From: Phycisphaerae bacterium
Lineage (GTDB): Bacteria > Planctomycetota > Phycisphaerae > UBA1845 > UTPLA1
Reading direction: 5' to 3'
Assembly: GCA_030432035.1 (NCBI GenBank)
Contig: JAUIHO010000001.1
Coordinates: 74-64,073, forward strand
DNA length: 64,000 nucleotides
In this document: positions 27,856-46,217 of the stretch, one piece after another
Numbering within the stretch: position 1 is the stretch's first letter
How the letters are laid out: every line of letters starts with the position of its first letter
The notes under the pieces: generated by a model
The model's database searches: none
What the model was told of the DNA's origin: nothing
Seen by the model: only the letters and a program-made list of their open reading frames with translations
Translations under genes and position numbers: made by a program

Positions 27856-27927
27856 ATTGTTTACATTTTTTGAGTCCCATCTGTCTCATTTATGGGTACC
27901 AGAGCTCGATTTCCTAGGGTTTCCGGA

Positions 27928-27942: not shown

Positions 27943-27965
27943 GTTATGCCCCTCGGAGGTTAATT

Positions 27966-31520: not shown

Positions 31521-31533
31521 GGCGACGACCCAG

Positions 31534-32751
31534 ATGCCCACAGCAATTGCAAACGATGCAATCAGACCGATTGCCAACGGCGACCTATTTAGCGTGCCGG
31601 GCCTTAATGGCGCGGCCGTCAAGACGGGCGTGAAGGAATCGGGCGATCTCGATTTGGCGTTGATTGTTGCCGACGAGCCGATGAACGTGGCCGCGATGTT
31701 CACGAAGAACGCGATGGCCGCCGCGCCGGTGCAGTTGTGTCGCGAGATTCTGAAAGATACTCGACAGATCAAAGGCATCGTCGTGAATTCGGGCAATGCG
31801 AACGCATTGACCGGCAAGCGCGGCGCGCAAGACGCGCAACGCATGTTGGGCGAAACCGAAGCAGCGATTAACGGCAAAACGTTGGTGCTTTCGACGGGCA
31901 TCATCGGCGTACCGCTGCCCATCGAAAAAGTGACCGCAGGCATCAAGCAGGCGGCGCAGCAGTTGCAATCCAATTGCGAAGACGTTGCCGAAGCAATGCT
32001 GACGACCGACACGATCAGGAAAACCGTCGCATTTGAAGTTGAGGCCGATGGCCAAACGTACCGCGTGGGCGGCGTTGCCAAGGGTTCGGGCATGATTCAT
32101 CCGAACATGGCGACGATGCTGGCCGTCGTGGCGACGGATGCACCGTTGGCGCAAGACGCCATGCAGCCGCTGTTAAAACGCGCCGTCGATGATTCGTTTC
32201 ATCGCATTAGCGTTGACGGCGATACCAGCACGAACGATGCCGTGGTGTTGATGGCCAAACCGGCACAAGCAGGTGACGAACTAAGCGCCGAGGGTACTGC
32301 GTTAATCGAATCGGCTATCGGTCGCGCTTGTCGGGAATTGGCGCAATCGATCGTGTGTGATGCCGAAGGCTCCACGCGCGTGATGGATATCGAAGTCATC
32401 GGCGCGGCAACCATCGAAGATGCCGAGCGCATTACAGAAAGCGTTGCGACATCCAGCTTGGTGAAAACGGCGTTGGCCGGTGCCAACCCCAATTGGGGAC
32501 GTATCATCTCGGCGGCGGGCAATGCGGGCGTCGCACTGTCGCCCGATGACATCACGCTGGAACTCGAAGGACAAACCGTATTTGAAAAAGGCGAAGTGAT
32601 CGCGGCCGACCAAGGCCGCCTTGATGAAGCGTTTGGACAAGACCGGGTACGAGTTCGCCTGACGGTCGGAACGGGACCGGTGACGCGGCACATGCTGGCA
32701 TCGGATCTGAGCAAACGCTACGTCGAAATCAATTCGGAATACACCACCTAA
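31534..32751 (+). CDS. argJ: bifunctional glutamate N-acetyltransferase / amino-acid acetyltransferase
   Basis: The autoprocessing site 'HPNMATMLAVVATDA' and the 'GANPNWGRI' motif are present. Confidence 0.9.
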   Translation: MPTAIANDAIRPIANGDLFSVPGLNGAAVKTGVKESGDLDLALIVADEPMNVAAMFTKNAMAAAPVQLCREILKDTRQIKGIVVNSGNANALTGKRGAQDAQRMLGETEAAINGKTLVLSTGIIGVPLPIEKVTAGIKQAAQQLQSNCEDVAEAMLTTDTIRKTVAFEVEADGQTYRVGGVAKGSGMIHPNMATMLAVVATDAPLAQDAMQPLLKRAVDDSFHRISVDGDTSTNDAVVLMAKPAQAGDELSAEGTALIESAIGRACRELAQSIVCDAEGSTRVMDIEVIGAATIEDAERITESVATSSLVKTALAGANPNWGRIISAAGNAGVALSPDDITLELEGQTVFEKGEVIAADQGRLDEAFGQDRVRVRLTVGTGPVTRHMLASDLSKRYVEINSEYTT

Positions 32752-32766
32752 ACCCCTGAACGAAAG

Positions 32767-33348
32767 GTGCATAATAGAATGGCTACACAGACGATGACGA
32801 AAACGAAGACGCTTGTCGATCGACCCACGCTCAAGATTCGCGCCGCGCGGCGCGATGATATGGGATTGATCGCGGACTTTGTTCGGTCTTCGGCCGAATG
32901 GTATCGCCCGATCGTCGATGAAAAGGACATGGCCGAACACGAAGTCGGCGAAGCCTGGGCCGAAGAAAACTTTCAAAAGCGTGACTTCTACGTCGGCATC
33001 ACCGAAGACGGTGAGTCAGTCGGTACGATTTCGCTGCAATACTTCGGCGACTGGGCTTATCTCGGTTACATCTATCTCGATGTAAAGCACGTCGGCAAGG
33101 GCTTTGGCCAAACGCTGATGAACTATGCCGAACAGAAAGCCCGCGCAGCCGGCATGCGCGGCATGTCGCTCATCGCGCATCCGGAAGCCGAGTGGGCCGG
33201 AAAGGCTTACCTGAAGTACGGCTTTGAGATTGTTGAGACCGACAAGGAAGCCGTAACGTCTTGGAACGACGGCGTTTTGAAGGGCTACTACGAAGAAGAT
33301 TTCGAGCTTTATTTGTACGAGTTCGATTCCGACGACGACAATGACTAG
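32767..33348 (+). CDS. GNAT family N-acetyltransferase
   Basis: The CoA-binding loop 'LDVKHVGKGFGQTLMNYAEQKA' is present. The tail is acidic. Confidence 0.7.
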   Translation: MHNRMATQTMTKTKTLVDRPTLKIRAARRDDMGLIADFVRSSAEWYRPIVDEKDMAEHEVGEAWAEENFQKRDFYVGITEDGESVGTISLQYFGDWAYLGYIYLDVKHVGKGFGQTLMNYAEQKARAAGMRGMSLIAHPEAEWAGKAYLKYGFEIVETDKEAVTSWNDGVLKGYYEEDFELYLYEFDSDDDND

Positions 33349-33416
33349 GCTATCACTGACCGTCGGACGAAACGCTAAGTAAGGCAAACATTTAATCTGG
33401 ATAGGAGTAAGCACTT

Positions 33417-34667
33417 ATGAATCATGCTAACAAGCCACCGGTAGGCCTGTTGGGCTTTTGTATTCCCGCGATGGAAGCGATGGATTCGATCGGGCGACCG
33501 TTCGTGTCGGTCGTTCCGCCCGAGTTTGAGCCGTACATGCAGGAAAACGGCCTCGAATACGTTACGTGGGATTTCGAACGGGTTAATGAGAAATCGATTC
33601 AATTGGCCGACGACTTGCGCGCCAAGGGCGTCGAGTTGGCCATTCCGTTGTACGAACAAACCGTCGAGTGGGCCGGAGCGCTCAACGGTGAGTTTCGCAA
33701 CGATCGCAAGCTATTTACGCGGTATCTGTTGTTCCGCGATAAGGCGATGATGAAGCGCCGGGCCCAAATGTATGGCATTCGCGTGGGTGTTTTTGAAGAA
33801 GCCGACGACCGCGATGCGGTGCGCAAGTTCTTCAAACGTGTAAACACGGCGGCAGTCAAGGTGGACGGCGATATCGAAGACCCGATTCACCTGAAGCCGC
33901 TCGATGCGGCGGGCTGTAAGGGTCACCGCATGATTCGCGCGTTGGCGGATATCGACGAGATTCGCGACGATGAGTTTCCCTGCCTCTTGGAAACCCACCT
34001 TCAGGGGCAGGAGTTTTCATGCGAGGTGTTCGTTCACAACGGTAAGGTGCGTTTCCTCAACATTACTGAGTACGTGCATCTTGGTCACAGCAACTTTGTA
34101 CCGGCGTCGCCGGCGTTGGAAGAGCGTCGCCCGCTAATCCAAAAGGCTGTGGAAGAACTGATTAGCGCGTTCGAAATTCAATACGGCATGATCCATCCCG
34201 AGTTTTTCATCACGCCGGACAATGTGATCAGCTTTGGTGAAGTCGCGGCACGTGTGCCCGGCGGGCACATCTTTGAATTGATCGAAAAGGCTTACGGCTT
34301 CAATCCGTTCGTGGCCTTCGCCCTTGCAGCCGACCCGTCAACGACCGACGCGGAATTCGAAGAATTCTTCCCCAAAATCGGTGAGCACAAAGAGTTCGCG
34401 GGCTGCCTGATGGTGTACCCGCGCAAACGAGTCGTCACTCGCGTCGACGTGCCCGAGCGTTTGTTGGAAGACGATTATTACGAGAAGCACAACCTCTTCG
34501 TGCCGGCCAACCCTAAGGTGGCGGAGCGCGAAGCGTTTGGCGATCACTACGGCACTGTCTATTTCCGCGGCGACGACTGCGAACGCATGCGCGATTTGTT
34601 GCGCGATTACGAGGAAGTGGACTTCTACGATAGTGACACCCCTCAACAAGAGCAGGTAACTGCATGA
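33417..34667 (+). CDS. ATP-grasp domain protein (L-amino-acid-ligase-like size and architecture)
   Basis: 416-aa ORF. ATP-grasp hallmarks are present: 'LKPLDAAGCKG', 'LLETHLQGQEFSCEVFVHNGKV', and 'HPEFFIT...FGEVAARVPGGHI'. Confidence 0.7.
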   Translation: MNHANKPPVGLLGFCIPAMEAMDSIGRPFVSVVPPEFEPYMQENGLEYVTWDFERVNEKSIQLADDLRAKGVELAIPLYEQTVEWAGALNGEFRNDRKLFTRYLLFRDKAMMKRRAQMYGIRVGVFEEADDRDAVRKFFKRVNTAAVKVDGDIEDPIHLKPLDAAGCKGHRMIRALADIDEIRDDEFPCLLETHLQGQEFSCEVFVHNGKVRFLNITEYVHLGHSNFVPASPALEERRPLIQKAVEELISAFEIQYGMIHPEFFITPDNVISFGEVAARVPGGHIFELIEKAYGFNPFVAFALAADPSTTDAEFEEFFPKIGEHKEFAGCLMVYPRKRVVTRVDVPERLLEDDYYEKHNLFVPANPKVAEREAFGDHYGTVYFRGDDCERMRDLLRDYEEVDFYDSDTPQQEQVTA

Positions 34668-36682
34668 CAGACGTAGGTACCGAGGCAGGCCAACTGCCCA
34701 AGACCGACGCGCATGCGTCCGGCGATCTGGTCGATCGATTGGGCGCTAAACTCGACACGATGTTGGACAAGCTCGGCGAAGCGAAGCCCTTCGCGAAGAG
34801 CACCTATCAGACCGATGTGTTTCAAACGTCGGAGTTGATGCTTTCGTCGGATAACGGCATCCGAGCGCTGTACGAGCGCGCCCACCGCTTTGACGATGTC
34901 GGACTATTCGCCAGTGGTGCCTGGGCCGACGCGGCCAAGCTGCAACCGCCACTGGTAGAGGGCAGCCTCAAAGCACACGGCGTTTATCCGATCGTCGAGA
35001 TATTGAGCGACTTGCGCATGTTGGCGATTGCAAGCGGCAAACAGAACCATCCGGAAGTGTCGGCAGCCGATGCGACCAACTTCCTTCAGGAAGTGATGGC
35101 GCTAAATCTGCAATTCGTCTTCCCCGGCGATACCGAGCAGGAACGCATTGAAGGCGGCCCGCATTACGAATCATCGTTGCGGTTGTTTAGATTGCTCTCT
35201 GATGAATTGGGACTCTCGTTTATTCGCGAGTACGTCGTCGCCGAAATCCGTCAGATCATTGCGCAACGACCGATCATGACGGGACGCGTGCGCACGATGA
35301 TTCGCATGGCGGCACGTACGCCCGACTCGAACGGCGACGATACGATTTCCGGTCGATTGAGTGAACTCACGGAAGCGATCGACGGGCCCAGCACGCTCTG
35401 CAAGCAAGCGACGACGTTGGCCGAATACCGCAAATTGTTGCAGCAGTGTGAAAAATCAACGCTGCGCGACGAAGCCGAACAGTTCGCTACGACGGTAAGC
35501 AAGACGGGTTTGGTCGCGCCGCAGCATGCGATTCTTTTGCGTTATTTGGCGACGAAAGAACCCGACATCATTCCCGAGGCGTTGTCGCTGGATGATTACG
35601 GCGCGGCGGAATTTGAGGGACAAATCGAATTCGCCCGACAGCTGGTGAAGGCTGCTATCTTTCCGACGACGGCGCAGTGCATACTCGGATTCGCACGCGT
35701 TTTAGAGCGCGGCCTGTTATCACGCCAAGAAGTCAGCGTCGGTCTCGAACGACTGGTCGATCTCGACTTGCAACCCGATATACGCCGATCGCTACTAGCG
35801 CAGCGGTCAAGGCACGACGGCGTCACAGCCAATTCGATTTTGCTAGCGGGCGCTTTGTCGGTGCTGGGTCAACCGCTCGGCGTCGGGCAAGGTCGCAACC
35901 CGACCTGCCAAGCCGCGCGCGGTATTAGCCTGTGGTCACAATATGCGCCGGCGTATTTGATAGAGTTGGTCGTATCGGCGGCCCGCGATGGTGTGGTGGA
36001 GATTCCGTTCGAAGGGCAAACCGTTCGCTCGGATAAGGCGGTCGTTGAAATGGGTCGCTCGCTCGATCTCAATCTCGACCCGGTATCCGTCGTCCTGGTA
36101 CCGCACCTCGACCGAATTTACGAACAGATGATGAAGCTTGTCGCGTTGCGCAACGAAGACGGTCATAAGTGGGTCAACCCCGCGCTGTATGGTCGCTGGG
36201 TCGCACGCGGCTTTTCGTCGGTCTTTGCCGACGTTGCGCTGACGACGATCTCCGGTTATGAAGATTTCGTGCGACGGTTCTTCGCCACGCATCATCCGTC
36301 GTTTAACGAAGGCCATTCGCTGATGTATCCCAACCCGGTTGGGTTATGCATCACCAACGGCCACGGCGATTACCTCGGCCCGCATGCGGTGTCGTTACAA
36401 CGCGTCTCCGAAGGGCCGGACGGCAAACTGCGGATTTACTTTTTCAATCCGAACAACGAAGGCCGACAGGATTGGGGTCACGATGTGAAGCCATCCATCG
36501 CAGACAATGGCGAGTTGGAAGGTGAGTCGTCGTTACCGTTCAATCAATTCGTCTCGCGGCTGTACGCATTTCATTACAACCCGTACGAAGTCGGCGATGC
36601 GTACGCCGTGCCCGATGCGGTCGTGAATGAAATTCAAAAAGAAGCCAGCGACACGTGGGGCCGCGCGTTTCAGTGGATGTAG
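34664..36682 (+). CDS. hypothetical protein; C-terminal half has a papain-like Q-x5-C...H...N signature
   Basis: 672-aa ORF with an ATGA overlap to the ATP-grasp gene. The signature residues are Gln409-x5-Cys415 ('GQGRNPTCQAARG', Cys codon 35906-35908), 'GPHAVSL' (His574) and 'FFNPNNEG'. The N-terminal half is helical. Confidence 0.5.
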   Translation: MTDVGTEAGQLPKTDAHASGDLVDRLGAKLDTMLDKLGEAKPFAKSTYQTDVFQTSELMLSSDNGIRALYERAHRFDDVGLFASGAWADAAKLQPPLVEGSLKAHGVYPIVEILSDLRMLAIASGKQNHPEVSAADATNFLQEVMALNLQFVFPGDTEQERIEGGPHYESSLRLFRLLSDELGLSFIREYVVAEIRQIIAQRPIMTGRVRTMIRMAARTPDSNGDDTISGRLSELTEAIDGPSTLCKQATTLAEYRKLLQQCEKSTLRDEAEQFATTVSKTGLVAPQHAILLRYLATKEPDIIPEALSLDDYGAAEFEGQIEFARQLVKAAIFPTTAQCILGFARVLERGLLSRQEVSVGLERLVDLDLQPDIRRSLLAQRSRHDGVTANSILLAGALSVLGQPLGVGQGRNPTCQAARGISLWSQYAPAYLIELVVSAARDGVVEIPFEGQTVRSDKAVVEMGRSLDLNLDPVSVVLVPHLDRIYEQMMKLVALRNEDGHKWVNPALYGRWVARGFSSVFADVALTTISGYEDFVRRFFATHHPSFNEGHSLMYPNPVGLCITNGHGDYLGPHAVSLQRVSEGPDGKLRIYFFNPNNEGRQDWGHDVKPSIADNGELEGESSLPFNQFVSRLYAFHYNPYEVGDAYAVPDAVVNEIQKEASDTWGRAFQWM

Positions 36683-36730: not shown

Positions 36731-36768
36731 AAGCCCAGGGGTGCCGAGTACGCGGCAACCCTGGGCTT
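36731..36768 (+). terminator. intrinsic terminator-like hairpin
   Basis: The arm AAGCCCAGGG (36731-36740) pairs with CCCTGGGCTT (36759-36768), with an inner 5-bp extension, followed by TTGCTTTTAC. It lies 49 nt after the stop of the 672-aa gene. Confidence 0.6.
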
Positions 36769-36867: not shown

Positions 36868-38640
36868 ATGAGTGCGACGGACAAACCATCCAAGATTTAC
36901 CTCGACGAGCTAATCGCCGGTCGCGCTGCCGAGTTCTATCGTTACGTGCGCCGTGTCGATTCGCCGTCGCTGTTGCAATATGTCGTCGAACGCTGGAAGC
37001 AGGCACCAGCCGATTGGGCGCGGACGCAAGCGATAGCCTATTTTGACGAGCCGCTGGATTGCCCCGGTCATGAGTTGGTCGTCAAACGCCTGTTCAAAGA
37101 CGCGGAAGAGCGCGGCGATGACGAGGTGTTGGCCGCCTGCACGGTCGCCTTCGATCGGTTGGTGCGGCGCAAGCGACGGCGCGGATATCGATACGATCCG
37201 ACTTCGCAACAATTTGCGCAACAAGAATATCTCGCCAGCCCGCGCGATCAAATCCCTCACCTGCCGAAGGATAAAGGCAGTCGCTGGGCCGGTGTCGATA
37301 CGGCATCTTACGTTGCCTATTTCAATACGAAGGCCAGCCGCCTGTTTAGCTATCGCACGCGTTATTACCTGCGGCGGCGCGCGTGGCGGTATTACCGACG
37401 CATGGGGTATCAACATCCCGACCGATACGTGCGGTCTGTCGCGACGTTTCTACAGCGGTACAGGGACAGCGATTTTGCGAAAGGCGAGAATATTCTCGAC
37501 AATTGGTCGATGCTGCATGCGTGTTACTTCCACCACGACGCGCTGGAGTTCAGTGATACAAAGGCCAAATTGGTTGAAGGCCACTCGCTAGCCGAGTTAA
37601 CGCCCGCCCCCTATCACGATGCGCTGTGGCGACAGACCGAAGCGTTCGATGTGCTCATCGAATTGTTGGGCACCGCCGAGAGCAGCCTTGTTCGCCTGTG
37701 GGCATTGGAATATCTCAATCAACACCATCGCGCATTGGTTTCATCGCTGACGCCGCAACGTCTAATGCCGCTATTGAACCATGCGGACGAGCGCGTGCAG
37801 AACTTCGCGGCGGAAGCGTTCTCGCAATTAGAGAATCTTGGCAGCCTTGGTATCGACGATTGGCTCGCACTTTTGAAGCTGTCGAGCATTAGCACGCTAA
37901 CGTTAATTTGCGATGCCATGCGTAAGCACGTCGCATCGGATCGGCTCGATCAGCAGCAATTGATCGAACTGGCCTGCGCCCGGCCCGACCCTGTCGCGCG
38001 AATGGGACTAGAGATGGTGCAGGCGCGCCATGCCGAACGCCCCTTCGCGCCGACCGAATTGTGTCGTTTGGCCCATGTCGAGTGTTTATCAATCGCGCGG
38101 CAAGCGGCCGAGTGGGTGCTGTCATTGCTCGGCACCGCATCAACATACGACGTCGAATGGGTATCGCCCTTCTTCGACAGCTTAAATCTGCCGACGCGTT
38201 TAGTAGCGATGGAGTGGCTTATGCCCAAAGCGCCCGGGTGGAACGACCCCGCATTGTGGGCGCGGCTCATCGAAACGCCTTTCGACGACGTGCGGCTCGG
38301 CGTTGTGCAGCGGATCGAACAACGCCTGCGATTGCCCGGCGGTGAAGTCGACCGCCTCGCGCCGGTCTGGACGGCTGTTATTCTTGGCGTACATCGTGGC
38401 GGTCGGCGCAAGCCCGATGCGTTGCGTCAAATCATCAAGGCGATGATCGCGGACCCTGCGCATGTCGAACGATTGTTACCGATCGTGGCCGTTGCCGTTC
38501 GATCCATTCGCGCACCCGAGCGCCGCGCGGCCCTTGCGGCCCTTGCACAGTTGATCGATGCCGCCCCGAACATGCAGGCGACGCTTCAACAAGCGATTCC
38601 GGAATTAACGTTGCCACCGATAGCCGCGGAGATGGCTTGA
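36868..38640 (+). CDS. HEAT/ARM-like helical-repeat protein, function unknown
   Basis: The start is taken at ATG 36868 (MSATDKP). The C-terminal two-thirds show recurring HEAT-like segments ('ERVQNFAAEAF', 'DPVARMGLEMV', 'PTRLVAMEWL', 'DDVRLGVVQRI', 'PERRAALAALAQL'). An Arg/Tyr-rich N-domain is present. Confidence 0.5.
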   Translation: MSATDKPSKIYLDELIAGRAAEFYRYVRRVDSPSLLQYVVERWKQAPADWARTQAIAYFDEPLDCPGHELVVKRLFKDAEERGDDEVLAACTVAFDRLVRRKRRRGYRYDPTSQQFAQQEYLASPRDQIPHLPKDKGSRWAGVDTASYVAYFNTKASRLFSYRTRYYLRRRAWRYYRRMGYQHPDRYVRSVATFLQRYRDSDFAKGENILDNWSMLHACYFHHDALEFSDTKAKLVEGHSLAELTPAPYHDALWRQTEAFDVLIELLGTAESSLVRLWALEYLNQHHRALVSSLTPQRLMPLLNHADERVQNFAAEAFSQLENLGSLGIDDWLALLKLSSISTLTLICDAMRKHVASDRLDQQQLIELACARPDPVARMGLEMVQARHAERPFAPTELCRLAHVECLSIARQAAEWVLSLLGTASTYDVEWVSPFFDSLNLPTRLVAMEWLMPKAPGWNDPALWARLIETPFDDVRLGVVQRIEQRLRLPGGEVDRLAPVWTAVILGVHRGGRRKPDALRQIIKAMIADPAHVERLLPIVAVAVRSIRAPERRAALAALAQLIDAAPNMQATLQQAIPELTLPPIAAEMA

Positions 38641-40346
38641 TGCAGGTGCAGACCGCCTATTTTGGAAGCAGTGCCATTCGCCAAGCCGCCGGCGGTCGCG
38701 TTCTGCAATTCGCACCCGATCTGTCGCGCGAGCGCGTCGGTTTTGATGCCCCGCTGAAAGACCCCGTCCGTTTTCGCGAAGCCATCAGCGCCTTGCACGA
38801 TGTGGTGATCAACGACCTGCGCTTTAAACCGCGCGATAAGTCGGCTTATGAAGCATGGAAAGTTCAACAACGCGAGCGCGAATCTCAAATTCGTAGCGCC
38901 GCCTATATGGATGTGAAGAAAACCCTCGATGCGCGCGTCGGTCAGCCGATACCGGCGGACCTCAAGCGCGAGTACGGTCGAGCACGCAAGCGCTATTGGT
39001 CGGCACGCCGCAGCTTAAACAACTGGCTGCGCGAAAATGATAAGGAACTGTGGCGGCAACTGATGCCGTACGACCCGGTGATTACCGTTGCCGATGACGT
39101 CGTGTTCTTCGAATGCTTCTCCGCCGACGAATCGAGCTACGGATGTTTGACGGTCGAGCGTGACGCGTGTTTCGGCGCATCGGATACCACCGAGTTCGGC
39201 ACGACCAACGTCGACTATTCGTGGGACTTGTATCATAACTTTCAGTCGCTGCGAACCTATCGCGAAACGCGCTTTGCCATCGACCCCGAAGGCTTTGCCT
39301 TGGCGACGCAGGATCACCCCGATTATCGCGAAGAAAAAATCGACCTGCCCGATGGTTGGTTGCGCGGTTTTATGCAACTGCAAGCGGCGATGTGTTTGCC
39401 GACGCGAAAGGTATCGCTCTCGGTTGGTGCGGTGTATTCGCTGCTGGCATTTCTGAAGCGACGCAAAGCACGCACGAGCCCGCGTGCGATTCGATTTGAA
39501 CTCACGCCGGGGCGGCCACCGCGACTGGTGTTGGAACCGTGGGAACAGCCGATCGATAGTTTCGGCACGATATACAACGGTCCGGCGGGCGACCCGCTGC
39601 GCATTTGGGGCCGCCGACGGCTGCTGGTGCTGTCGCGCGTGTTGCCTTTGGCCGACGGCGTGGATGTGTATTTATTGGGAACGGGTTTACCGAGCTTTTG
39701 GGTCGTGCGCATGGGCCCAATGCGATTGACGCTGGGGCTATCGGGCTGGACGACGAACGATTGGACGCGCGGTTCGGCGGTCGACATGTTGATGCCGCCG
39801 TCTCATCCGCAAGATTCGGATGTATCCCGCCTTGCCGACGTATTGCAAACCGAGCGTAGCGCGCCGTTGAGTGACTTGGCGTCGCGTGCCAGTCTCGCGC
39901 CCGATTTGGCTGCCGCCGGGCTCAACCAACTCGCATTGCGCGGTCAGGCGATATACGACCTCGATGCCGATCGATTTCGATGGCGTCAGGTACTACCGAT
40001 GGCGCTGAGCGAAAAAGAGTTGGGTCCGCCACATCCAGAACGTGTAGGCGCGCTTCAGATACTCGTGCGTCAGCAAGTGCAGGTTTCATCGGCACAGCGC
40101 GGACCGCGCGGTGGATTGATTCTCGTTGGCAAATCCGAAGGCAAACCGGTCGAAGCATTGATCGACGATGACGGTATCATTCGAAAAGGCAAATGTCTCT
40201 GCAGCTACTTCTATAAGTACGGCATTCGCAACGGTCCGTGTCGACATTTGCAAGCGTTACGCGATCAGCATACACGCACCGGCGACGGAGCCGGTACATC
40301 GACATTGAGTTGGTACGAACGAACGCGACAATGGGCCGGGCGCTGA
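38637..40346 (+). CDS. SWIM zinc-finger domain protein
   Basis: C-terminal CxCx12CxH ('CLCSYFYKYGIRNGPCRH', nt 40194-40247) matches the SWIM signature. It makes a 4-bp overlap with the upstream gene. Confidence 0.75.
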   Translation: MMQVQTAYFGSSAIRQAAGGRVLQFAPDLSRERVGFDAPLKDPVRFREAISALHDVVINDLRFKPRDKSAYEAWKVQQRERESQIRSAAYMDVKKTLDARVGQPIPADLKREYGRARKRYWSARRSLNNWLRENDKELWRQLMPYDPVITVADDVVFFECFSADESSYGCLTVERDACFGASDTTEFGTTNVDYSWDLYHNFQSLRTYRETRFAIDPEGFALATQDHPDYREEKIDLPDGWLRGFMQLQAAMCLPTRKVSLSVGAVYSLLAFLKRRKARTSPRAIRFELTPGRPPRLVLEPWEQPIDSFGTIYNGPAGDPLRIWGRRRLLVLSRVLPLADGVDVYLLGTGLPSFWVVRMGPMRLTLGLSGWTTNDWTRGSAVDMLMPPSHPQDSDVSRLADVLQTERSAPLSDLASRASLAPDLAAAGLNQLALRGQAIYDLDADRFRWRQVLPMALSEKELGPPHPERVGALQILVRQQVQVSSAQRGPRGGLILVGKSEGKPVEALIDDDGIIRKGKCLCSYFYKYGIRNGPCRHLQALRDQHTRTGDGAGTSTLSWYERTRQWAGR

Positions 40347-40385
40347 TGCGTGCCGCAGCCGCTTGCCGCATAACGACGAGCATAA

Positions 40386-40600
40386 GGGGGTAACCGATCA
40401 CCTGAGACCATCTTGCTGCGGCGTACCGCCGTGGTTGAACATGACTATCCATGCTTCCCCAAGGCCGTTGTTCGTATGGCCCGACGCGTATGTAGGTGCG
40501 TCGGCCATGACAAGCCGAGGCTTACGACGCACCTACATACGCGTCGGGCCTTGGTTAACGACCTCGGTCCGGAGATCTGAAGTCAGGTGATCGGCCCCCC
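40386..40600 (+). ncRNA. candidate retron msr-msd RNA
   Basis: There is a perfect 12-bp inverted repeat: a1 at 40394-40405 (CCGATCACCTGA) and a2 at 40583-40594 (TCAGGTGATCGG). It is extendable by GGGGG 40386-40390 / CCCCC 40595-40599 across a 3-nt bulge. The first unpaired base after a1 is G40406. A small hairpin lies at 40419-40431. A 26-bp perfect stem joins 40478-40503 and 40525-40550, with a 21-nt loop. The region ends 24 nt before the RT start. Confidence 0.55.
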
Positions 40601-40624
40601 ACTTTTTTGTTTAGGTAACGCGTC

Positions 40625-42241
40625 GTGGGATTGTTTGACTTTGTCAAAAAGCTGTTCGGCGGATCGGACGCCGGCACCGTCTGCCCGAGTTGCGGCACGC
40701 CTTATCGCGATGGCGCTCGCTACTGCGGACAGTGCAATCATCCGCGCGGAGTGCCCACATCGCGCCCCACGATTCCGCCGCCGGTCGCACGCCAACCCAA
40801 GGTGCAAAACCTGACCGGCCTCGATGCGCAGAAGTTTGAACCGATGACGACGGCCGATGCGAAGGCCACCATCAAAGAAGCCAGCACGCTGCGGTCGGCG
40901 TTTCTCGATCCGTTAACCGTCATTCCCGATCCAACGTTGCCGCGCATTCAAATTATCGATCGCACGATGGTCGGCCTTGGACTCATTTCGCCCGAAGAAC
41001 TCACGCACATCCACGAAGTCGGCCTGCAATACGCCGAGATGAAGGGCGATCTGTCGGTCGCGCGGGCGGCGGGCGAACGGGCGGTGCGACTGTCACGCGA
41101 AGAGCGCGCGGCGCGCAAACAGCAGAAGATCGAAGAGGCGCAGCGCCGACGGCAAGCGCGGGCCGAAGCCATCGCGCGACGCCGAGCGACGGATATCGTG
41201 TTTCTCGGCCGCGGTGTGTCGCGCGGGTTGGCCGATCGGCGCGCGAATGTTGAACGGCTGAAGGCAAACGACTTGCCGATTATCTCGTCGCCTGCCGAAT
41301 TGTCAGTGGCGATGAACATTCCGATCCCACGGCTGCGGTTCCTAGCATTTCATAGCGATGCGCCGCAACGCGTGCACTACGTCACGTTTACAGTACCAAA
41401 GAAGAGCGGCGGCACGCGGTTGTTGTCAGCACCGCATCAATCGCTGGCGACTGCTCAACAGTGGATATTGGAGAACATCCTGAGCAAGGTTTCGCCGCAC
41501 GATGCAGTGCATGGATTCGTGCCGGGGCGTTCGACGCTAACCAATGCCGAGCCGCACGTTGGCGCGGATACGGTCGTGAATATAGATTTGAAGAATTTCT
41601 TTCCGACGATCACGTTCGCGCGCGTGCTGGGCGTGTTTCGTGCGCTGGGTTACTCGCCCGCCGTCGCGACGATACTGGCATTGTTGTGCTCCGAAGCGCC
41701 GCGGCGCCCCATGAAGTACGACGGGCAAACGTATTACGCCGCCACCGGGCCGCGCGCTCTACCGCAAGGCGCTTGCACCAGCCCGGCGCTGTCGAACCTC
41801 GTTGCGCGTCGACTGGATCGGCGCATGCTTGGCATCGCGCAAAAACTCGGCTGGACGTACACGCGTTACGCCGACGATCTGTCTTTTTCGCAGCACGGTG
41901 AGTTGACTGCCAGCATTGGATACTTGCTAGCACGGATTCGACACATTGCGGACGACGAAGGCTTTTCGGTCAACGAAAAGAAGACGCGGGTGCAGCGCCG
42001 CAATCAGCAACAGTCGGTCACCGGCCTAGTCGTCAACGATCGTATAAACGTGCCGCGCAAAACGATTCGCCGCTTGCGCGCTATCCTGCATCGCGCGCAA
42101 CGCGAAGGATTGGCCGCGCAGAATCGCGACAACCATCCGCACTTTGAAGCATGGGTACGTGGCATGATCGCTTACATTTCGATGTCAAACCCCGAAGCAG
42201 CGCAACGACTGCGAACGGAATTTGATAAAATTGGAAGGTAG
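40625..42241 (+). CDS. retron-type reverse transcriptase with N-terminal zinc-ribbon/coiled-coil extension
   Basis: It has a GTG start. RT motifs are present: 'NIDLKNFFPTIT', 'LPQGACTSPALSNL', 'YADD' (41867-41878) and the retron-typical 'SVTGLVVN' (VTG at 42017-42025). The pre-RT helix 'RLRFLAFH...YVTFTVPKKSGGTR' is also present. Residues 1-215 contain 'CPSCG...CGQC' and an Arg/Glu-rich helix. Confidence 0.85.
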   Translation: MGLFDFVKKLFGGSDAGTVCPSCGTPYRDGARYCGQCNHPRGVPTSRPTIPPPVARQPKVQNLTGLDAQKFEPMTTADAKATIKEASTLRSAFLDPLTVIPDPTLPRIQIIDRTMVGLGLISPEELTHIHEVGLQYAEMKGDLSVARAAGERAVRLSREERAARKQQKIEEAQRRRQARAEAIARRRATDIVFLGRGVSRGLADRRANVERLKANDLPIISSPAELSVAMNIPIPRLRFLAFHSDAPQRVHYVTFTVPKKSGGTRLLSAPHQSLATAQQWILENILSKVSPHDAVHGFVPGRSTLTNAEPHVGADTVVNIDLKNFFPTITFARVLGVFRALGYSPAVATILALLCSEAPRRPMKYDGQTYYAATGPRALPQGACTSPALSNLVARRLDRRMLGIAQKLGWTYTRYADDLSFSQHGELTASIGYLLARIRHIADDEGFSVNEKKTRVQRRNQQQSVTGLVVNDRINVPRKTIRRLRAILHRAQREGLAAQNRDNHPHFEAWVRGMIAYISMSNPEAAQRLRTEFDKIGR

Positions 42242-42355: not shown

Positions 42356-45300
42356 CTAGTCGTCCGATTCCCACAATCGCAATACGCAAGGTCTTTTTCC
42401 ATAGGCCCCGCTGCCCGTGGCAATCACGCTACCATCGGGGCTTATGCCGACGGCCCAGATGTTCGATTCGTCACCGCGCAGTTTGAGAACGATTTGGCCA
42501 GAGGCAACGTCGGTTAACACGATCGCGCGGTCGTGTGAGCTTGAGACCAACCGTGTGCCATCGGGGGTAAATGCCAGATCGAGAACGTCCGTCGCGTGCG
42601 CGGGTATGGTTCGCAACGTCGCCAACGAAACCGCATTTAGCAAATGTATCTCACCCGATGCAAGGCCGACGGCAATTGCAGCACCGCGCGGCGAGATTGC
42701 CATCGCTTGAATGGACTTGCCGAAGTCATGGCGGCGAACGATCGAGCCCGCTGCCATGTCCCATTCGATTAGCGACTGATCCTGCGATGCTGAATACAGT
42801 CGCGTGCCATCCGGTGTGAACGACAGCTTCCAAATCCAACCTTGGTGGCCGCTTAGTTCGCGAATGAGCTTGCCCGACTGCGTATCCCACAGCAACACCC
42901 GTTGATCGATGCCGCCGGAAGCAACGCGTCTACCATCGGGGCTAAATACGGCGGTGTGTACGGCGTGTTCGTGTGACGCGAGCGCGTGTTTCAATTTTAA
43001 CGTTTCGGCATCCCACAATCCGACGACACCGGATCGGCCTGCCGTCGCAATCAGCTTGCCATCGGGAGAGAAGCAAACATCCTGAAAGCCGCGCGGCAGC
43101 TCTTCCAATTCGCCCAACTGCAAACGTTGAGCGACATCCCAGATACGCACGGCGCCATCGAATGACGCCGTTGCGATGTGCTTACCATTCGGGCTGACGT
43201 CGATCCCTCGGATCAACCGTTGATGGGCGACGATGGATTCTTTTCGCGTGAGTGCGTTTACATCCCATGTCCTAATCGTGGCATCCCAAGATGCCGTAAC
43301 GAGATGCGAACCGTTGGGTGTGAAGTTTACACGGCCCACTGCCGCATCGTGGCCATGGGCGATGCTGATGTTGCGATGCGAATCGACGTCGTAAATTCGG
43401 AGCGTTTTATCGACACCTGTCGTGGCGATCAATGTTCCATCTGGCGACCATGCGACGGCGAGTGCACCGCCTTCATGGTCTGCGATCTCCCATAACAGCG
43501 TTCCCGCGTCGACGTCAAAGATCTTAACGTTGCCGTTGTTGGAACTGATCGCCAACTGCTTTCCGTTATGGGAAAACGAAACACCCGTAATGCCACCGTT
43601 CTTTTCTTTATGAAGTGCCTCCACAGTCCCGGTAGCTGTATCGAGAAGTAGCGTCGCGCCATCTTCGGTACCGATGGCCATACGTGATTCGTTTGGGCTA
43701 AGCGCCAATCGACACGCGTTACCCTCTGTCACACGATGGGCAAACTGCACAGTGCCTGTTTCAACATCCCACGCGCGCACGAATCCATCATCCGCCGACG
43801 CCCACACGCGCTCGCCCTGTCGATCTAGCAAAACGGCTTGCATCCACGCCCCTTCCACCCGCGCTTCGAAGATAGGAAGATCAAGTTCGGGCGTTCGATA
43901 AGCTCGCACTAAATCGTCGCCGCAAGCTGCAATCAGATCACCATCCGCGCTGACATGCACATCGTTAACCACGTATTCAAAATTGGGGCTGCGCGCGACA
44001 ACCTGACCGCTCGCAATGTCCCAAAGCTGGATGCATCGATCGTCGGCAGGGTATGCACCTGCCGCCGTCGCTAACCATCGGCCATCAGCGCTAAGCGACG
44101 CCGCGCGGATGGGGCCTGTCGCTCCACGCAAGGTGCGTTCGCTGCGATCGAGTTGACGCTTTAGATAGTGGTACTCCCAATTGCGCAAGTGCTCAGGCAC
44201 ACCCGCGAGCCGCAAGCGCGCGGCGGGCACGCCATGGGCGCGCAGCTCGGCATCGGCGGCCACGATATTGGCGACGTAAGATTGAAACTCCGCTTCGGCA
44301 CGCTGTTGGTCGGCCACCTTCCGCGCGGCGGCTTCCGACGCTTGCGCGCGTTCGGCGTCGCGTGCGCGACGTTCGGCGCGCTGCTCCGCTTTGCCGGTCT
44401 TCCAGGCAAAGCGCAAACTAATCCCGGTCGCGGCGATCAACGTCAGCACCACCAGCACCAACGACGCCAACACACTCGGATGTCGCCGCGCGAACAGTTT
44501 GAGTTGATAACCGGTCGAAGGCCTCCGCGCTTCAATCGGCAACTTCTCAAGGTAATGTTGCAGGTCGCGGCTCAGGTCGGCGGCGGATTGGTAGCGACGC
44601 TCGGACGTTTTCTCCAACGCCTTGCCCGCAATCGTTTCGATATCGCCTCGCAACTTTGGATTATTTCGGCCCAAACGCTGCGGCGGTTGCCGCTTGATGG
44701 CTTCCGCAATTGACAAGATCGCCGAGCTTTTGAAATCGTATGGCAAATGCCCCGTCAACAGCTCGAACAACACAACACCCAACGCATACACGTCGGTGCG
44801 AATGTCGATGCGATGCGGGTCGGCATCGAGTTGCTCCGGGCTCATGTATTGCGGCGTGCCGATCAACTGCCCCGCTTGCGTGTTGAAATCGAGCGTTAGC
44901 AAATCGCGATCGACGGCACGCGCGACGCCGAAATCAATCACCTTTAATTGACCATCGCGGCCAACGAGAATGTTGCTCGGCTTCAGATCGCGATGAATGA
45001 TGCCATGTTGATGACCGTGATGGACGGCTGCACACGCATCGATGATGAGACGCACGCGTTCGTCAATCCCCAGTTGATGCTGGTCGGCATACTGCGTCAC
45101 CGGAATCGCATCAGGCACCAATTCCATCGCAAAGAAATGCATCGACGCCGCACCATGCTGATGCGTGCCCGCTTCATAAATCTGTGCGATATTCGGGTGC
45201 TGCAGGTGCGCTAAGATATCCGCCTCGTAGCGAAACCGGCGCGCGGCCGATGCCGTTTCGTCGGTCGAGCGCAACAGCTTTAGCGCGACGCGACGGCGTG

Positions 45301-45625
45301 GGCTATCTTGCTCGGCTTCGTAAACCGTGCCCATGCCGCCAGCGGCAATCTTCCGCACGACGGTATAGCGGCCGACGCGTTGTGGCTGTTCGACGGTGCC
45401 CGCCTGATCTTGCGCCGCGAGCGTGTCGTGCGGCACCTTAGTTAAGACCGACACCGCCAGAAAATCACCCGCCTCATCGTGATACGACAGCAGCGACAAT
45501 ACCTCGTCTTGCAACGCGGCATCGCCCTTGCACATTTCGATGATGCGCGGCGTGCGCACGCCCGGTGCCAATTCGCGTACTTGAAGGAACACGTCGCGGA
45601 CTCGCTGGTGACGATCAGCGGACAT
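42356..45625 (-). CDS. Ser/Thr protein kinase with TM helix and C-terminal WD40 beta-propeller(s)
   Basis: The kinase motifs 'HRDLKPSNILV', 'DFGVA' and 'YMSPEQ' are present. The TM helix is 'VLASLVLVVLTLIAATGI'. More than 12 WD40-like repeats follow ('...WD..'). Confidence 0.9.
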   Translation of the reverse strand: MSADRHQRVRDVFLQVRELAPGVRTPRIIEMCKGDAALQDEVLSLLSYHDEAGDFLAVSVLTKVPHDTLAAQDQAGTVEQPQRVGRYTVVRKIAAGGMGTVYEAEQDSPRRRVALKLLRSTDETASAARRFRYEADILAHLQHPNIAQIYEAGTHQHGAASMHFFAMELVPDAIPVTQYADQHQLGIDERVRLIIDACAAVHHGHQHGIIHRDLKPSNILVGRDGQLKVIDFGVARAVDRDLLTLDFNTQAGQLIGTPQYMSPEQLDADPHRIDIRTDVYALGVVLFELLTGHLPYDFKSSAILSIAEAIKRQPPQRLGRNNPKLRGDIETIAGKALEKTSERRYQSAADLSRDLQHYLEKLPIEARRPSTGYQLKLFARRHPSVLASLVLVVLTLIAATGISLRFAWKTGKAEQRAERRARDAERAQASEAAARKVADQQRAEAEFQSYVANIVAADAELRAHGVPAARLRLAGVPEHLRNWEYHYLKRQLDRSERTLRGATGPIRAASLSADGRWLATAAGAYPADDRCIQLWDIASGQVVARSPNFEYVVNDVHVSADGDLIAACGDDLVRAYRTPELDLPIFEARVEGAWMQAVLLDRQGERVWASADDGFVRAWDVETGTVQFAHRVTEGNACRLALSPNESRMAIGTEDGATLLLDTATGTVEALHKEKNGGITGVSFSHNGKQLAISSNNGNVKIFDVDAGTLLWEIADHEGGALAVAWSPDGTLIATTGVDKTLRIYDVDSHRNISIAHGHDAAVGRVNFTPNGSHLVTASWDATIRTWDVNALTRKESIVAHQRLIRGIDVSPNGKHIATASFDGAVRIWDVAQRLQLGELEELPRGFQDVCFSPDGKLIATAGRSGVVGLWDAETLKLKHALASHEHAVHTAVFSPDGRRVASGGIDQRVLLWDTQSGKLIRELSGHQGWIWKLSFTPDGTRLYSASQDQSLIEWDMAAGSIVRRHDFGKSIQAMAISPRGAAIAVGLASGEIHLLNAVSLATLRTIPAHATDVLDLAFTPDGTRLVSSSHDRAIVLTDVASGQIVLKLRGDESNIWAVGISPDGSVIATGSGAYGKRPCVLRLWESDD

Positions 45626-46217
45626 GCGCGCCGCTCTCGCTGAGATGGCGCAATAGCCAAGCGCGGGCCATCGCCCAATCGCCTTCGACAGTGCGCAGCG
45701 ATACGCCCATCACATCCGCCACTTCGCGATTGGTAAGGCCGCCGAAGAAACGCAGTTCGACGATTTCGGCCTGCCGCGCATCGAGATTGGCCAGCCGCGA
45801 CAACGCCGCATCCAAATCGAGTAGGTCGACATCTAACTGCGCCGCAGTATCGGTAACCACCGACAACGGCGAACGCTCCCGCATGCCGCCGCGCTTGGCC
45901 GCCTTCTTTGCCAACGCGTGATTGATAAGAATACGCCGCATGGCCCGCGCCGCGACGGCGAAGAAGTGGGCGCGATCGTTCCAAGCGGGCTGTTGACCGC
46001 CGACGAGTTTGATAAAGGCCTCATGCACCAATGCGGTCGGTTGCAGCGTGTGGTCGGCGCGTTCCTGGTCGAGATATTGCGCGGCAAGCGTACGCAGCGT
46101 TTGATAGACAGCCTCGAAAAGCCCGACCGTCGCTTGAGCATCGCCTGCGGCGGCGGCGCGGAGGTAGCGCGTGACCTGCGGGTTCGGGATCGGTTGGTGC
46201 GTGTCTCGGACCATCAT
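45615..46217 (-). CDS. ECF-type sigma factor (planctomycete kinase-associated type)
   Basis: The segments 'QPTALVHEAFIKL' and 'RFFGGLTNREVADVMGVSLRTVEGDWAMARAWL' are present. It overlaps the downstream kinase gene by 11 nt. Confidence 0.85.
   Translation of the reverse strand: MMVRDTHQPIPNPQVTRYLRAAAAGDAQATVGLFEAVYQTLRTLAAQYLDQERADHTLQPTALVHEAFIKLVGGQQPAWNDRAHFFAVAARAMRRILINHALAKKAAKRGGMRERSPLSVVTDTAAQLDVDLLDLDAALSRLANLDARQAEIVELRFFGGLTNREVADVMGVSLRTVEGDWAMARAWLLRHLSESGAHVR

What the first reader, a model, noticed from the sequence alone, without database searches (positions are those of the whole stretch)
36868..42241. Co-directional unit of helical-repeat protein + SWIM protein + structured RNA + retron-type RT, with no recognisable retron effector
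Seen in sequence:
- A terminator-like hairpin (36731-36768) closes the upstream operon.
- Four elements then follow on the + strand with minimal spacing. Gene 36868-38640 overlaps gene 38637-40346 by 4 bp.
- A 39-nt gap leads to the structured region 40386-40600.
- A 24-nt gap leads to the RT gene 40625-42241. The next gene is convergent.
- The last ~320 aa of the RT align block-by-block with E. coli Ec86 retron RT as I remember it. The matching blocks are RLRFLAF..Y.TFTVPKK.GG.R, GF.PGRS.L.NA.PH.GA..V.NIDL..FFP, LPQGA.TSP.LSNL, YTRYADDL.FS, and VTGLVV followed by R..LRA.LH.

Established knowledge: retrons are anti-phage systems made of an RT, an msr/msd RNA and an effector that is encoded next to or fused to the RT.

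Inference:
- I recognise none of the effector classes I know here (OLD/TOPRIM ATPases, NDT, 2TM, TIR, proteases, HNH, cold-shock, DUF3800, PRTase).
- One explanation is that the SWIM/HEAT-like pair or the RT's own N-terminal extension is a new effector module.
- The other explanation is that this is an effector-less myxobacterial-style retron.
Basis: partly seen in the sequence, partly recalled or inferred. Interest (0 to 1): 0.9.

Follow-up and report, generated by a model that had tools for sequence, protein, structure and literature searches.

The report
Type XIII retron in a planctomycete

Summary
Four co-directional elements lie at 36868-42241: a helical-repeat gene, a SWIM gene, a structured RNA and a reverse transcriptase (RT) gene. 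The "no recognisable effector / new module" reading is not supported.

PADLOC profiles match all three proteins nearly full length:
- HEAT-ARM_XIII, E 2e-194.
- SWIM_XIII, E 7e-181.
- RT_XIII, E 4e-162.

This HEAT/ARM + SWIM + RT + dedicated ncRNA layout is retron type XIII of Mestre et al. 2020. That class includes the myxobacterial retrons Mx162 and Mx65.

The RNA at 40378-40606 is a genuine msr-msd:
- It has a1/a2 repeats and an invariant G after a1.
- 96.9% of cells pair, and 35 of 50 pairs show compensatory changes across 78 copies.
- The inner stems have about 0.1% G-U pairs against 26% in the msr hairpin. This fits stems that must also pair as DNA.

Of 64 related loci with enough upstream DNA, 49 keep the same gene order; flanking genes differ.

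Additions from this work:
- The SWIM protein models as a PCNA-like double domain, with an acidic D-E-D-E tetrad that is invariant even in RT-less SWIM relatives.
- Fifteen loci have RT and ncRNA but no adjacent partner genes.
- Some loci carry tandem ncRNAs.

The mechanism of type XIII is untested. Verdict: new member of a known kind.

The parts
36731..36768 (+). Terminator-like hairpin followed by a U-rich tail. It closes the upstream GNAT / ATP-grasp / 672-aa operon and marks the 5' boundary of the unit; it is not part of the retron.
   Evidence: Folds at -29.8 kcal/mol, z = -5.2, 0 of 200 shuffles as stable. Sequence read.
36868..38640 (+). HEAT/ARM-like helical-repeat protein (590 aa), the accessory protein of retron type XIII. 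It lacks the WGR domain.
   Evidence: PADLOC HEAT-ARM_XIII PDLC02922: E 2.4e-194, aa 3-585 against profile positions 3-560 of 564. Pfam gives only weak HEAT hits at aa 254-321. A homologue sits upstream of the SWIM gene in 49 of 64 related loci.
38640..40346 (+). SWIM protein (568 aa from ATG 38640; the ORF opens at TTG 38637). Modelled layout:
- a PCNA-like double domain (about aa 35-370) interrupted by a helical-hairpin insertion (aa 69-141);
- a winged helix (about aa 393-449);
- a C-terminal SWIM zinc knuckle, C520-x-C522-x12-C535-x-H537.
An acidic tetrad D146/E159/D193/E232 is invariant.
   Evidence: PADLOC SWIM_XIII PDLC02972: E 7.1e-181. Invariant columns in alignments A5, A6 and A7. 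AlphaFold2 models with pLDDT 71.8 and 79.1. Foldseek top 50 hits are all PCNA or related clamp chains (including 9-1-1), E 2e-7, target-normalised TM up to 0.59. No Pfam or PDB sequence match.
40378..40606 (+). Retron ncRNA (msr-msd); limits are those of the covariance-model match.
   Evidence: Model R1 scores 230.5 bits, E 1.5e-59, and this is the only hit in the window. Across 78 copies, 96.9% of cells pair, 35 of 50 pairs have compensatory changes, and 0 of 500 shuffles reach the observed values.
40386..40405 (+). a1 inverted repeat: GGGGG, a TAA bulge, then CCGATCACCTGA. It pairs with a2.
   Evidence: Sequence, minimum-free-energy fold, and covarying helix 1.
40406..40406 (+). Candidate branching (priming) guanosine. 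It is unpaired, lies immediately 3' of a1, and is invariant. Its role as the branch point is inferred.
   Evidence: G in 75 of 75 aligned copies. The position matches the conserved branching G described for retrons (PMC7736814).
40415..40435 (+). msr stem-loop (helix 2), constrained as RNA only.
   Evidence: 9 pairs, 98.5% paired, 26% G-U pairs.
40459..40582 (+). Predicted msd, the template for msDNA. It contains helix 3 (40459-69 with 40557-67), the long hairpin (40479-97 with 40531-49) and the apical stem (40512-15 with 40520-23). The extent is inferred.
   Evidence: G-U fraction is 0.1% or less in helices 3, 4 and 7 (2 of 2,369 cells). All 18 pairs of helix 4 show Watson-Crick double changes.
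40583..40600 (+). a2 inverted repeat (TCAGGTGATCGGCCCCCC).
40603..40615 (+). U-rich tract (TTTTTTGTTT) just after a2. It may mark the ncRNA 3' end or act as an attenuator ahead of the RT gene.
   Evidence: A U-rich tract follows a2 in 53 of 78 copies, against 12% of background windows.
40625..42241 (+). Retron type XIII reverse transcriptase (538 aa). Features:
- zinc ribbon at aa 20-40 (present only in part of the lineage);
- conserved N-terminal extension at aa ~60-215;
- RT domain at aa 257-468;
- NAEPH (aa 307-311), YADD (aa 415-418) and VTG (aa 465-467).
   Evidence: PADLOC RT_XIII: 538.6 bits against 363.5 for the next profile. Pfam RVT_1 and Zn_Ribbon_1. Invariant columns in alignment A1. 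Best solved-structure match is Ec86 RT. The GTG start gives MGLFD, as in homologues.

Best explanation
The unit is a chromosomal type XIII retron in the Mestre et al. 2020 classification, found here in a planctomycete. It has four parts: a HEAT/ARM protein, a SWIM protein, an msr-msd ncRNA and an RT.

Shown here:
- All three proteins belong to the type XIII families.
- The RNA is a conserved, strongly covarying msr-msd with a1/a2 repeats and an invariant G next to a1.
- The cassette, but not its flanking genes, is conserved across Planctomycetota, Verrucomicrobiota and other phyla.

Inferred mechanism:
1. The RT binds the msr.
2. It primes on the 2'-OH of G40406.
3. It copies roughly 40582 back to about 40459 into an msDNA of about 125 nt. 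This msDNA folds into a long, perfectly Watson-Crick DNA hairpin.
4. By analogy with characterised retrons, the RT-msDNA complex holds the HEAT and SWIM proteins in an inactive assembly.
5. Disturbance of the msDNA, for example by a phage, releases or activates them.
6. The likely active component is the SWIM protein. It would bind DNA through its PCNA-like core, winged helix and zinc knuckle, and act through its invariant D-E-D-E acidic cluster.

Confidence by step:
- Identification as a type XIII retron: about 0.95.
- msDNA production: about 0.8.
- Anti-phage, toxin-antitoxin-like role with the SWIM protein as effector: about 0.4-0.5.
For: Family assignment:
- PADLOC profiles match at E 2.4e-194 (HEAT-ARM_XIII), 7.1e-181 (SWIM_XIII) and 3.5e-162 (RT_XIII).
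- Type XIII is defined in PMC7736814 as a clade 10 RT, a cluster 114 protein carrying a DEDE motif, a winged helix and a CxCx12CxH SWIM motif, a preceding HEAT/ARM protein, and its own ncRNA type.
- The window protein has D146-x7-D154-x4-E159-x33-D193-x38-E232 and C-x-C-x12-C-x-H, all invariant or nearly so.
- The retron RT hallmarks NAxxH and VTG are invariant (hallmarks described).
- Ec86 RT is the top match among solved structures.

The ncRNA:
- The fold has z = -8.4.
- 32 of 50 pairs are compensatory among 26 sequences.
- Across 78 copies, 96.9% of cells pair, against 30-45% when the partners are slid by 1-3 columns.
- G-U pairs make up 26% of the msr hairpin but 0.1% or less of helices 3, 4 and 7. 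This is expected if those stems must also pair in the complementary DNA.
- The G after a1 is invariant.

Gene neighbourhood:
- 49 of 64 RT loci keep the order HEAT-SWIM-RT.
- Two SWIM homologues looked up from the other direction both sit between a ~575-aa gene and an RVT_1 gene.
- Flanking genes are shared only with the 94%-identical locus L001.
- Clostridium butyricum carries WGR_XIII-SWIM_XIII-RT_XIII.
Against: - No experiment on any type XIII retron was found in the searchable literature. The defence role and the toxin-antitoxin logic are extrapolated from other retron types.
- The genomic context is housekeeping (arginine biosynthesis genes, kinases, an ECF sigma factor), not a defence island.
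- No close relative was found in 2.9 million viral contigs or in the phage records.
- The SWIM protein is unusually conserved for an immune effector, 56-77% identity across phyla.
- Mestre et al. report a partial correlation with 16S rRNA, which suggests vertical inheritance.
- 15 of 64 loci have the RT and ncRNA without adjacent HEAT or SWIM genes.
- No enzymatic domain is recognised in either partner. The PCNA-like fold rests on AlphaFold models in which residues 219-234, which include E232, have low confidence.
Confidence: 0.9

Rival explanations
1. A domesticated, vertically inherited retron with a cellular function other than phage defence. The msDNA-RT-HEAT-SWIM complex would act in some DNA transaction of the host, for example repair, replication or chromosome handling.
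For: - Housekeeping neighbours.
- Thousands of homologues.
- Strong purifying selection: RT amino-acid identity of 92-96% at 4-fold-site divergence of about 0.3, and SWIM identity of 56-77% across phyla.
- No close relatives on viral contigs or in phage records.
- Mestre et al. note the 16S correlation and suggest possible domestication.
- The PCNA-like fold fits a role in DNA metabolism.
Against: - Every retron type characterised so far acts in defence (abstracts).
- RT-less SWIM + DUF6493 pairs lie beside an integrase and a toxin-antitoxin pair, or beside SLATT and ribosome-inactivating-protein genes, which is conflict-type context.
- The distribution includes scattered phyla (Desulfomonilaceae, Riflebacteria, Clostridium megaplasmid), which implies some horizontal transfer.
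Confidence: 0.3
2. One reading: the SWIM/HEAT pair or the RT N-terminal extension is a previously unknown retron effector module.
For: - Pfam and NCBIfam do not recognise either partner protein.
- Neither partner has a sequence relative among solved structures.
Against: - The pair was described in 2020 as the type XIII signature.
- It has PADLOC profiles that match at E below 1e-180.
- The N-terminal extension is a family-wide trait of type XIII RTs.
Confidence: 0.03
3. An effector-less retron (RT plus ncRNA only) that happens to lie next to unrelated SWIM and HEAT genes.
For: 15 of 64 related loci carry the RT and ncRNA with no HEAT or SWIM gene within 7 kb, and their RTs are under purifying selection.
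Against: - 49 of 64 loci keep the same order and strand while their flanking genes differ.
- The stop and start codons of the HEAT and SWIM genes overlap.
- Look-ups starting from the SWIM protein again find the RT.
- The same trio occurs in Clostridium.
- Mestre et al. report co-evolution of the RT with the HEAT protein.
Confidence: 0.04

Closest known systems
Retron type XIII (RT clade 10; Retron-Mxa1/Mx162, Mxa2/Mx65, Sau1/Sa163, Nex2/Ne144), Mestre et al. 2020
   Same: - Same three protein families by profile.
- Same DEDE and CxCx12CxH motifs.
- The HEAT/ARM gene precedes the SWIM gene.
- A dedicated msr-msd with a long msd hairpin.
- An RT with an N-terminal extension and the NAxxH and VTG motifs.
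   Different: - The host is a planctomycete.
- A zinc ribbon is added at the RT N-terminus (present in 7 of 19 aligned relatives).
- The HEAT protein lacks the WGR domain seen in some members.
- The motif spacing is x33/x38 rather than the published x30-32/x37.
Clostridium butyricum megaplasmid type XIII locus (NZ_CP132345.1)
   Same: WGR_XIII, SWIM_XIII and RT_XIII genes in the same order and on the same strand. The SWIM proteins are 30% identical over 95% of their length.
   Different: - The helical-repeat partner is 978 aa and matches the WGR_XIII profile.
- The SWIM and RT genes overlap, so the ncRNA cannot lie between them.
Retron Ec86 / Eco1 (type II-A), the best-studied retron
   Same: - The RT domain is homologous (E 1.9e-43).
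- msr-msd architecture with a1/a2 repeats and a priming G.
- Presumably the same three-part logic of RT, msDNA and effector.
   Different: - Its effector is a nucleoside deoxyribosyltransferase-like protein, not a HEAT + SWIM pair.
- Its RT has no ~215-aa N-terminal extension.
- Its ncRNA has a different shape.
RT-less 'SWIM zinc finger family protein' + DUF6493 gene pairs (Streptomyces, Diaphorobacter)
   Same: - The SWIM proteins match the SWIM_XIII profile at 166-176 bits.
- They keep D146, E159, D193, E232, the GTTNVD motif and the zinc ligands.
- Each is followed by a large partner gene of unknown function.
   Different: - There is no RT or ncRNA nearby.
- The helical insertion (aa ~58-135) is absent.
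- The DUF6493 partner shows no detectable sequence similarity to the window HEAT protein and no hit to any PADLOC profile, the type XIII HEAT/WGR ones included.
PCNA / 9-1-1 sliding clamps
   Same: The predicted fold has four beta-alpha-beta-beta-beta motifs in two domains. Foldseek gives E 2e-7, probability 1.0 and target-normalised TM of 0.5-0.59 against whole PCNA monomers, in two independent models.
   Different: - Sequence identity is only 7-14%, and no Pfam PCNA model matches.
- The protein carries a helical insertion, a winged helix and a SWIM extension.
- Ring formation is unknown.
- RMSD is 7-10 A.

Membership tests
Retron type XIII | RT carries the retron-specific NAxxH (region X) and VTG (region Y) motifs plus the catalytic YADD. 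| tested here: met
   NAEPH at aa 307-311, YADD at aa 415-418 and VTG at aa 465-467. A308, H311, Y415-D418 and V465-G467 are invariant in 19 relatives. The motifs are defined in PMC7736814.
Retron type XIII | RT belongs to clade 10, the type XIII lineage. | tested here: met
   PADLOC RT_XIII scores 538.6 bits, against 363.5 for RT_other and 344.3 for RT_outgroup. This is a profile-based assignment; no tree with the reference set was built.
Retron type XIII | An adjacent msr-msd ncRNA with terminal inverted repeats, one or more msr hairpins and a long msd stem-loop. | tested here: met
   a1/a2 form 12 + 5 bp; there is one msr hairpin, a long msd hairpin whose main stem (helix 4) has 18 covarying pairs, and strong covariation.
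Retron type XIII | A conserved branching G at the end of a1. | tested here: met
   G40406 is invariant in 75 of 75 copies. Actual 2'-5' branching cannot be tested here.
Retron type XIII | Production of msDNA. | not testable with these tools
   Indirect support only: G-U pairs are virtually absent (0.1% or less) from helices 3, 4 and 7, against 26% in the msr hairpin.
Retron type XIII | An associated cluster 114-type protein with a DEDE motif, a winged helix and a C-terminal SWIM motif CxCx12CxH. | tested here: met
   - SWIM_XIII profile: E 7.1e-181.
- D146, D154, E159, D193, E232 and C520, C522, C535, H537 are conserved.
- The model shows a helix-helix-helix-strand-strand winged helix at aa 393-449.
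- A relative gives a weak DprA_WH hit.
Retron type XIII | A HEAT/ARM-repeat gene preceding the SWIM gene. | tested here: met
   HEAT-ARM_XIII profile: E 2.4e-194, full length. The stop and start codons of the two genes overlap.
Retron type XIII | Anti-phage function, or toxicity of the effector. | not testable with these tools
   No experimental report for this type was found.
Group II intron, DRT or Abi reverse transcriptases | The RT scores above the family threshold, and (for introns) intron RNA domains are present. | tested here: not met
   - group_II_RT_mat: 66.7 bits against a cut-off of 300.
- Drt2: 32.2 bits against 390; Drt3a: 29.9 bits against 200.
- No Rfam match at 40300-40680, even at E up to 10.
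IS256/Mutator-type DDE transposase origin of the SWIM protein (suggested by Mestre et al.) | An RNase H-like catalytic fold around the acidic motif. | tested here: inconclusive
   - The Foldseek top 50 of both models are all PCNA-type or related clamp chains.
- No transposase Pfam family matches in any of 40 members.
- However, residues 219-234 are modelled with low confidence, and only the top 50 hits are visible.
DNA sliding clamp (PCNA) fold | Two topologically identical domains, each made of two beta-alpha-beta-beta-beta motifs. | tested here: met
   Seen in the secondary-structure order of the models and in the Foldseek matches (E 2e-7, target-normalised TM up to 0.59). This rests on models only.
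DNA sliding clamp (PCNA) fold | Assembly into a closed ring around duplex DNA. | not testable with these tools
   No multimer or DNA-complex modelling was available.

The most novel reading that the evidence does not exclude
The type XIII partner proteins are not a conventional toxin. On this reading, the SWIM protein is a PCNA-like DNA clamp or platform with an invariant D-E-D-E metal site, inherited from an RT-less SWIM + DUF6493 module. It engages the perfectly Watson-Crick msDNA hairpin. The whole assembly would be a vertically inherited, chromosome-resident DNA-handling machine in Planctomycetota and Verrucomicrobiota rather than, or in addition to, a phage abortive-infection system.
Probability: 0.15. 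Interest if true: 0.7.

Novelty: new member of a known kind. Interest (0 to 1): 0.3.

Why it matters
For the scan, the main result is that an apparently effector-less or novel retron is explained by an existing class. Pfam and NCBIfam miss both partner proteins, so the class is easy to overlook.

For the field, type XIII is one of the most widespread retron types, yet I found no functional or structural study of it. Four leads from this work are concrete enough to test:
- the strand-specific lack of G-U pairs, which marks out the msd;
- the PCNA-like model of the SWIM protein, with its acidic tetrad conserved even in RT-less relatives;
- the RT-plus-ncRNA-only loci;
- the tandem ncRNAs with unrelated stems.

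Tried and rejected
1. Diversifying selection on the msd stem.
- Between the window and L001, 16 of 38 stem positions differ, against 23% of 4-fold sites (p = 0.01; 8 of 19 pairs are doubly changed).
- In 40 close locus pairs, only 3 exceed the synonymous proxy.
- Conclusion: the stem drifts under a pairing constraint. General positive selection is not supported.

2. Homology between the window HEAT protein and DUF6493. BLASTP finds nothing, and PADLOC HEAT/WGR profiles do not match DUF6493 proteins.

3. Rfam. No family matches the ncRNA, even at E up to 10.

4. Pfam and NCBIfam annotation of the HEAT and SWIM proteins. The result is nothing or sub-threshold.

5. Sequence search of the PDB for the HEAT and SWIM proteins. 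No matches.

6. Mobile-element carriage. No close relatives in viral contigs or phage records.

7. Supplementary tables of Mestre et al., to check whether planctomycete entries are listed. They are not held.

8. The RlaP-type nucleotidyltransferase downstream of some RT-only loci as an alternative effector. Those loci are 92-96% identical to one another, so shared synteny is uninformative, and one member (L019) lacks the gene.

Full report
**1. Observation**

The ORF table confirms three co-directional genes on the + strand: 36868-38640, 38637-40346 and 40625-42241. A convergent Ser/Thr kinase-WD40 gene lies at 42356-45625.

The upstream hairpin at 36731-36768 is real. It folds at -29.8 kcal/mol (z = -5.2) and has a U-rich tail.

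The 278-nt intergenic region before the RT folds at -142.4 kcal/mol (z = -8.4). It has terminal inverted repeats and a long central hairpin.

One correction: the SWIM gene probably starts at ATG 38640, giving a TGATG junction, because homologues start M-x4-AY.

**2. Identity of the proteins**

Pfam recognises little:
- RVT_1 and a zinc ribbon in the third protein.
- Sub-threshold HEAT hits in the first.
- Nothing in the second.

NCBIfam names neither partner.

PADLOC-DB matches all three, essentially end to end:
- HEAT-ARM_XIII, E 2.4e-194.
- SWIM_XIII, E 7.1e-181.
- RT_XIII, E 3.5e-162 at 538.6 bits; the next RT profile scores 363.5 bits.

Mestre et al. 2020 (PMC7736814) define retron type XIII by four features:
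- A clade 10 RT. This clade includes Mx162, Mx65, Sa163 and Ne144.
- A protein with a Dx7[D]x4Ex30-32Dx37E motif, a winged helix and a CxCx12CxH SWIM finger.
- Usually a preceding HEAT/ARM protein.
- A distinct ncRNA.

The window protein fits. It has D146-x7-D154-x4-E159-x33-D193-x38-E232 and C520-x-C522-x12-C535-x-H537, all invariant or nearly so in 40 and 144 homologues.

The RT carries the retron hallmarks NAxxH, YADD and VTG, all invariant.

A 2026 survey already lists type XIII in Planctomycetota.

**3. The RNA**

Intergenic regions from 26-28 related loci align well. The scaffold is highly conserved and the central stem is completely variable.

A covariance model built from this alignment gave these results:
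- One copy in the window, at 40378-40606 (230 bits).
- Copies in 75 of 81 sources, nearly always just upstream of the RT.

Across 78 copies:
- 96.9% of cells form standard pairs, against 30-45% when the partners are slid by 1-3 columns.
- 35 of 50 pairs show changes on both sides.
- No shuffle of 500 reaches the observed values.

G-U pairs make up 26% of the msr hairpin (40415-40435). In helices 3, 4 and 7 (40459-40567) they account for 2 of 2,369 cells. A G-U pair in RNA becomes a C-A mismatch in the cDNA, so this asymmetry is what selection on a DNA hairpin predicts. It marks out the msd without any experiment.

An unpaired G directly after a1 (G40406) is invariant in 75 of 75 copies. It is the candidate branch point.

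A U-rich tract follows a2 in 53 of 78 copies, against 12% of background windows.

**4. Gene neighbourhood**

A scan of one genome per species found at least 578 related loci, of which the best 80 were kept.

- L001 (CP030884.1, a planctomycete MAG chromosome) is 94% identical and shares the window's flanking genes. No other locus does.
- Of 64 loci with at least 4.3 kb upstream, 49 carry HEAT-SWIM-RT in the same order and on the same strand.
- Look-ups starting from two SWIM homologues return the same trio among unrelated neighbours.
- A Clostridium butyricum megaplasmid carries WGR_XIII-SWIM_XIII-RT_XIII.

The four-part unit is real.

**5. What is new relative to the literature I could search**

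(a) *PCNA-like fold.* Two AlphaFold2 models of the SWIM protein (pLDDT 71.8 with 40 sequences, 79.1 with 144) give Foldseek top-50 lists made up entirely of PCNA-type and related clamp chains, including 9-1-1 subunits. E reaches 2e-7, probability is 1.0, and target-normalised TM is 0.5-0.59.
- The strand and helix order shows four beta-alpha-beta-beta-beta motifs.
- The first motif is interrupted by a helical hairpin at aa 69-141.
- RT-less relatives lack that hairpin.
- This does not support the transposase origin suggested by Mestre et al. It cannot exclude it either, because residues 219-234 are poorly modelled.

(b) *A wider SWIM family.* SWIM proteins in Streptomyces and Diaphorobacter match the SWIM_XIII profile at 166-176 bits and keep D146, E159, D193, E232 and the zinc ligands. 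They are paired with DUF6493 proteins and have no RT nearby. The retron therefore seems to have captured a pre-existing two-gene module. Homology between the HEAT protein and DUF6493 could not be shown.

(c) *RT-only loci.* Fifteen loci have the RT and ncRNA but no HEAT or SWIM gene within 7 kb. Their RTs are under purifying selection.

(d) *Tandem ncRNAs.* Three loci carry two ncRNA copies that share the scaffold but have unrelated stems.

**6. Mechanism**

No functional or structural study of type XIII was found, and no PDB entry contains its partner proteins.

The most likely mechanism, by analogy with other retrons, is an RT-msDNA complex that restrains the HEAT-SWIM pair until a phage disturbs it. 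The SWIM protein would be the DNA-directed effector.

Evidence pointing the other way, towards a domesticated role:
- The housekeeping context.
- No close relatives on viral contigs or in phage records.
- High conservation of the proteins.
- The 16S correlation reported by Mestre et al..

I rate that rival at about 0.3.

**7. Verdict**

The claimed novelty is not there. This is a new planctomycete member of the known type XIII retron class.

Interest is modest at 0.3. It is raised slightly because the class is mechanistically unexplored and because the analysis produced testable leads.

Noticed in passing
L013, L014, L016, L019, L020, L022, L024, L027, L028, L031, L037, L042, L075, L077, L079 (RT at about 7001 in most): Fifteen of 64 related loci have the type XIII-like RT with no HEAT or SWIM gene within 7 kb. 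Fourteen of them also have the ncRNA. Their RTs are under strong purifying selection. In L013, L016 and L020 an RlaP-family nucleotidyltransferase gene follows the RT; L014 has a similar-sized ORF in the same position that was not scanned. These loci are near-identical to one another, so the linkage is uninformative.
   Followed up: partly
L021 6464-6687 and 6732-6958; L059 6369-6605 and 6672-6908; L055 352-575 and 614-837: These loci carry tandem duplicated retron ncRNAs. The scaffold is conserved (76-95% identity), but the msd stems are unrelated in sequence while staying perfectly paired. In L055 both copies lie between the HEAT and SWIM genes rather than before the RT.
   Followed up: partly
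L105 7764-11824 (Streptomyces plasmid); L106 7809-14142 (Diaphorobacter plasmid): RT-less pairs of a SWIM-family protein with one or two DUF6493 proteins. The SWIM proteins match the SWIM_XIII profile and keep the D-E-D-E tetrad. They lie next to an integrase and a VapC/Phd pair, or next to SLATT and ribosome-inactivating-protein genes. The function of the module is unknown.
   Followed up: partly
window 40479-40549 compared with L001: Between two strains with 23% divergence at 4-fold sites, the msd stem differs at 16 of 38 positions (8 compensated pairs), while the other 191 nt of the ncRNA differ at only 4. This excess is not general across other close locus pairs.
   Followed up: yes
window 40603-40615, and the equivalent position in 53 of 78 ncRNA copies: A U-rich tract directly follows the a2 repeat, so the a1/a2 stem plus this tract looks like an intrinsic terminator placed between the ncRNA and the RT start codon.
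   Followed up: partly
window 59592-59905 (-): Rfam matches to group II intron D1-D4 domains (97.7 and 60.4 bits). No RT or maturase ORF lies next to them; the 241-aa ORF at 58989-59714 has no Pfam hit. GC content drops to 0.49-0.51 at 60-62 kb. This is probably an ORF-less or decayed intron.
   Followed up: partly
window 27927-36682 (+): An arginine biosynthesis cluster (argC-, argB-, argD- and argJ-like genes, 27927-32751) is followed by a GNAT acetyltransferase gene, an ATP-grasp gene and an unannotated 672-aa gene that has no Pfam, NCBIfam or PADLOC match. This operon ends at the 36731-36768 hairpin.
   Followed up: partly
window 42356-46217 (-) and 60791-63880 (-): Two large Ser/Thr kinases, one fused to WD40 repeats and one to TPR repeats. 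The first sits next to an ECF sigma factor gene. This is typical planctomycete signalling content and is unrelated to the retron.
   Followed up: no
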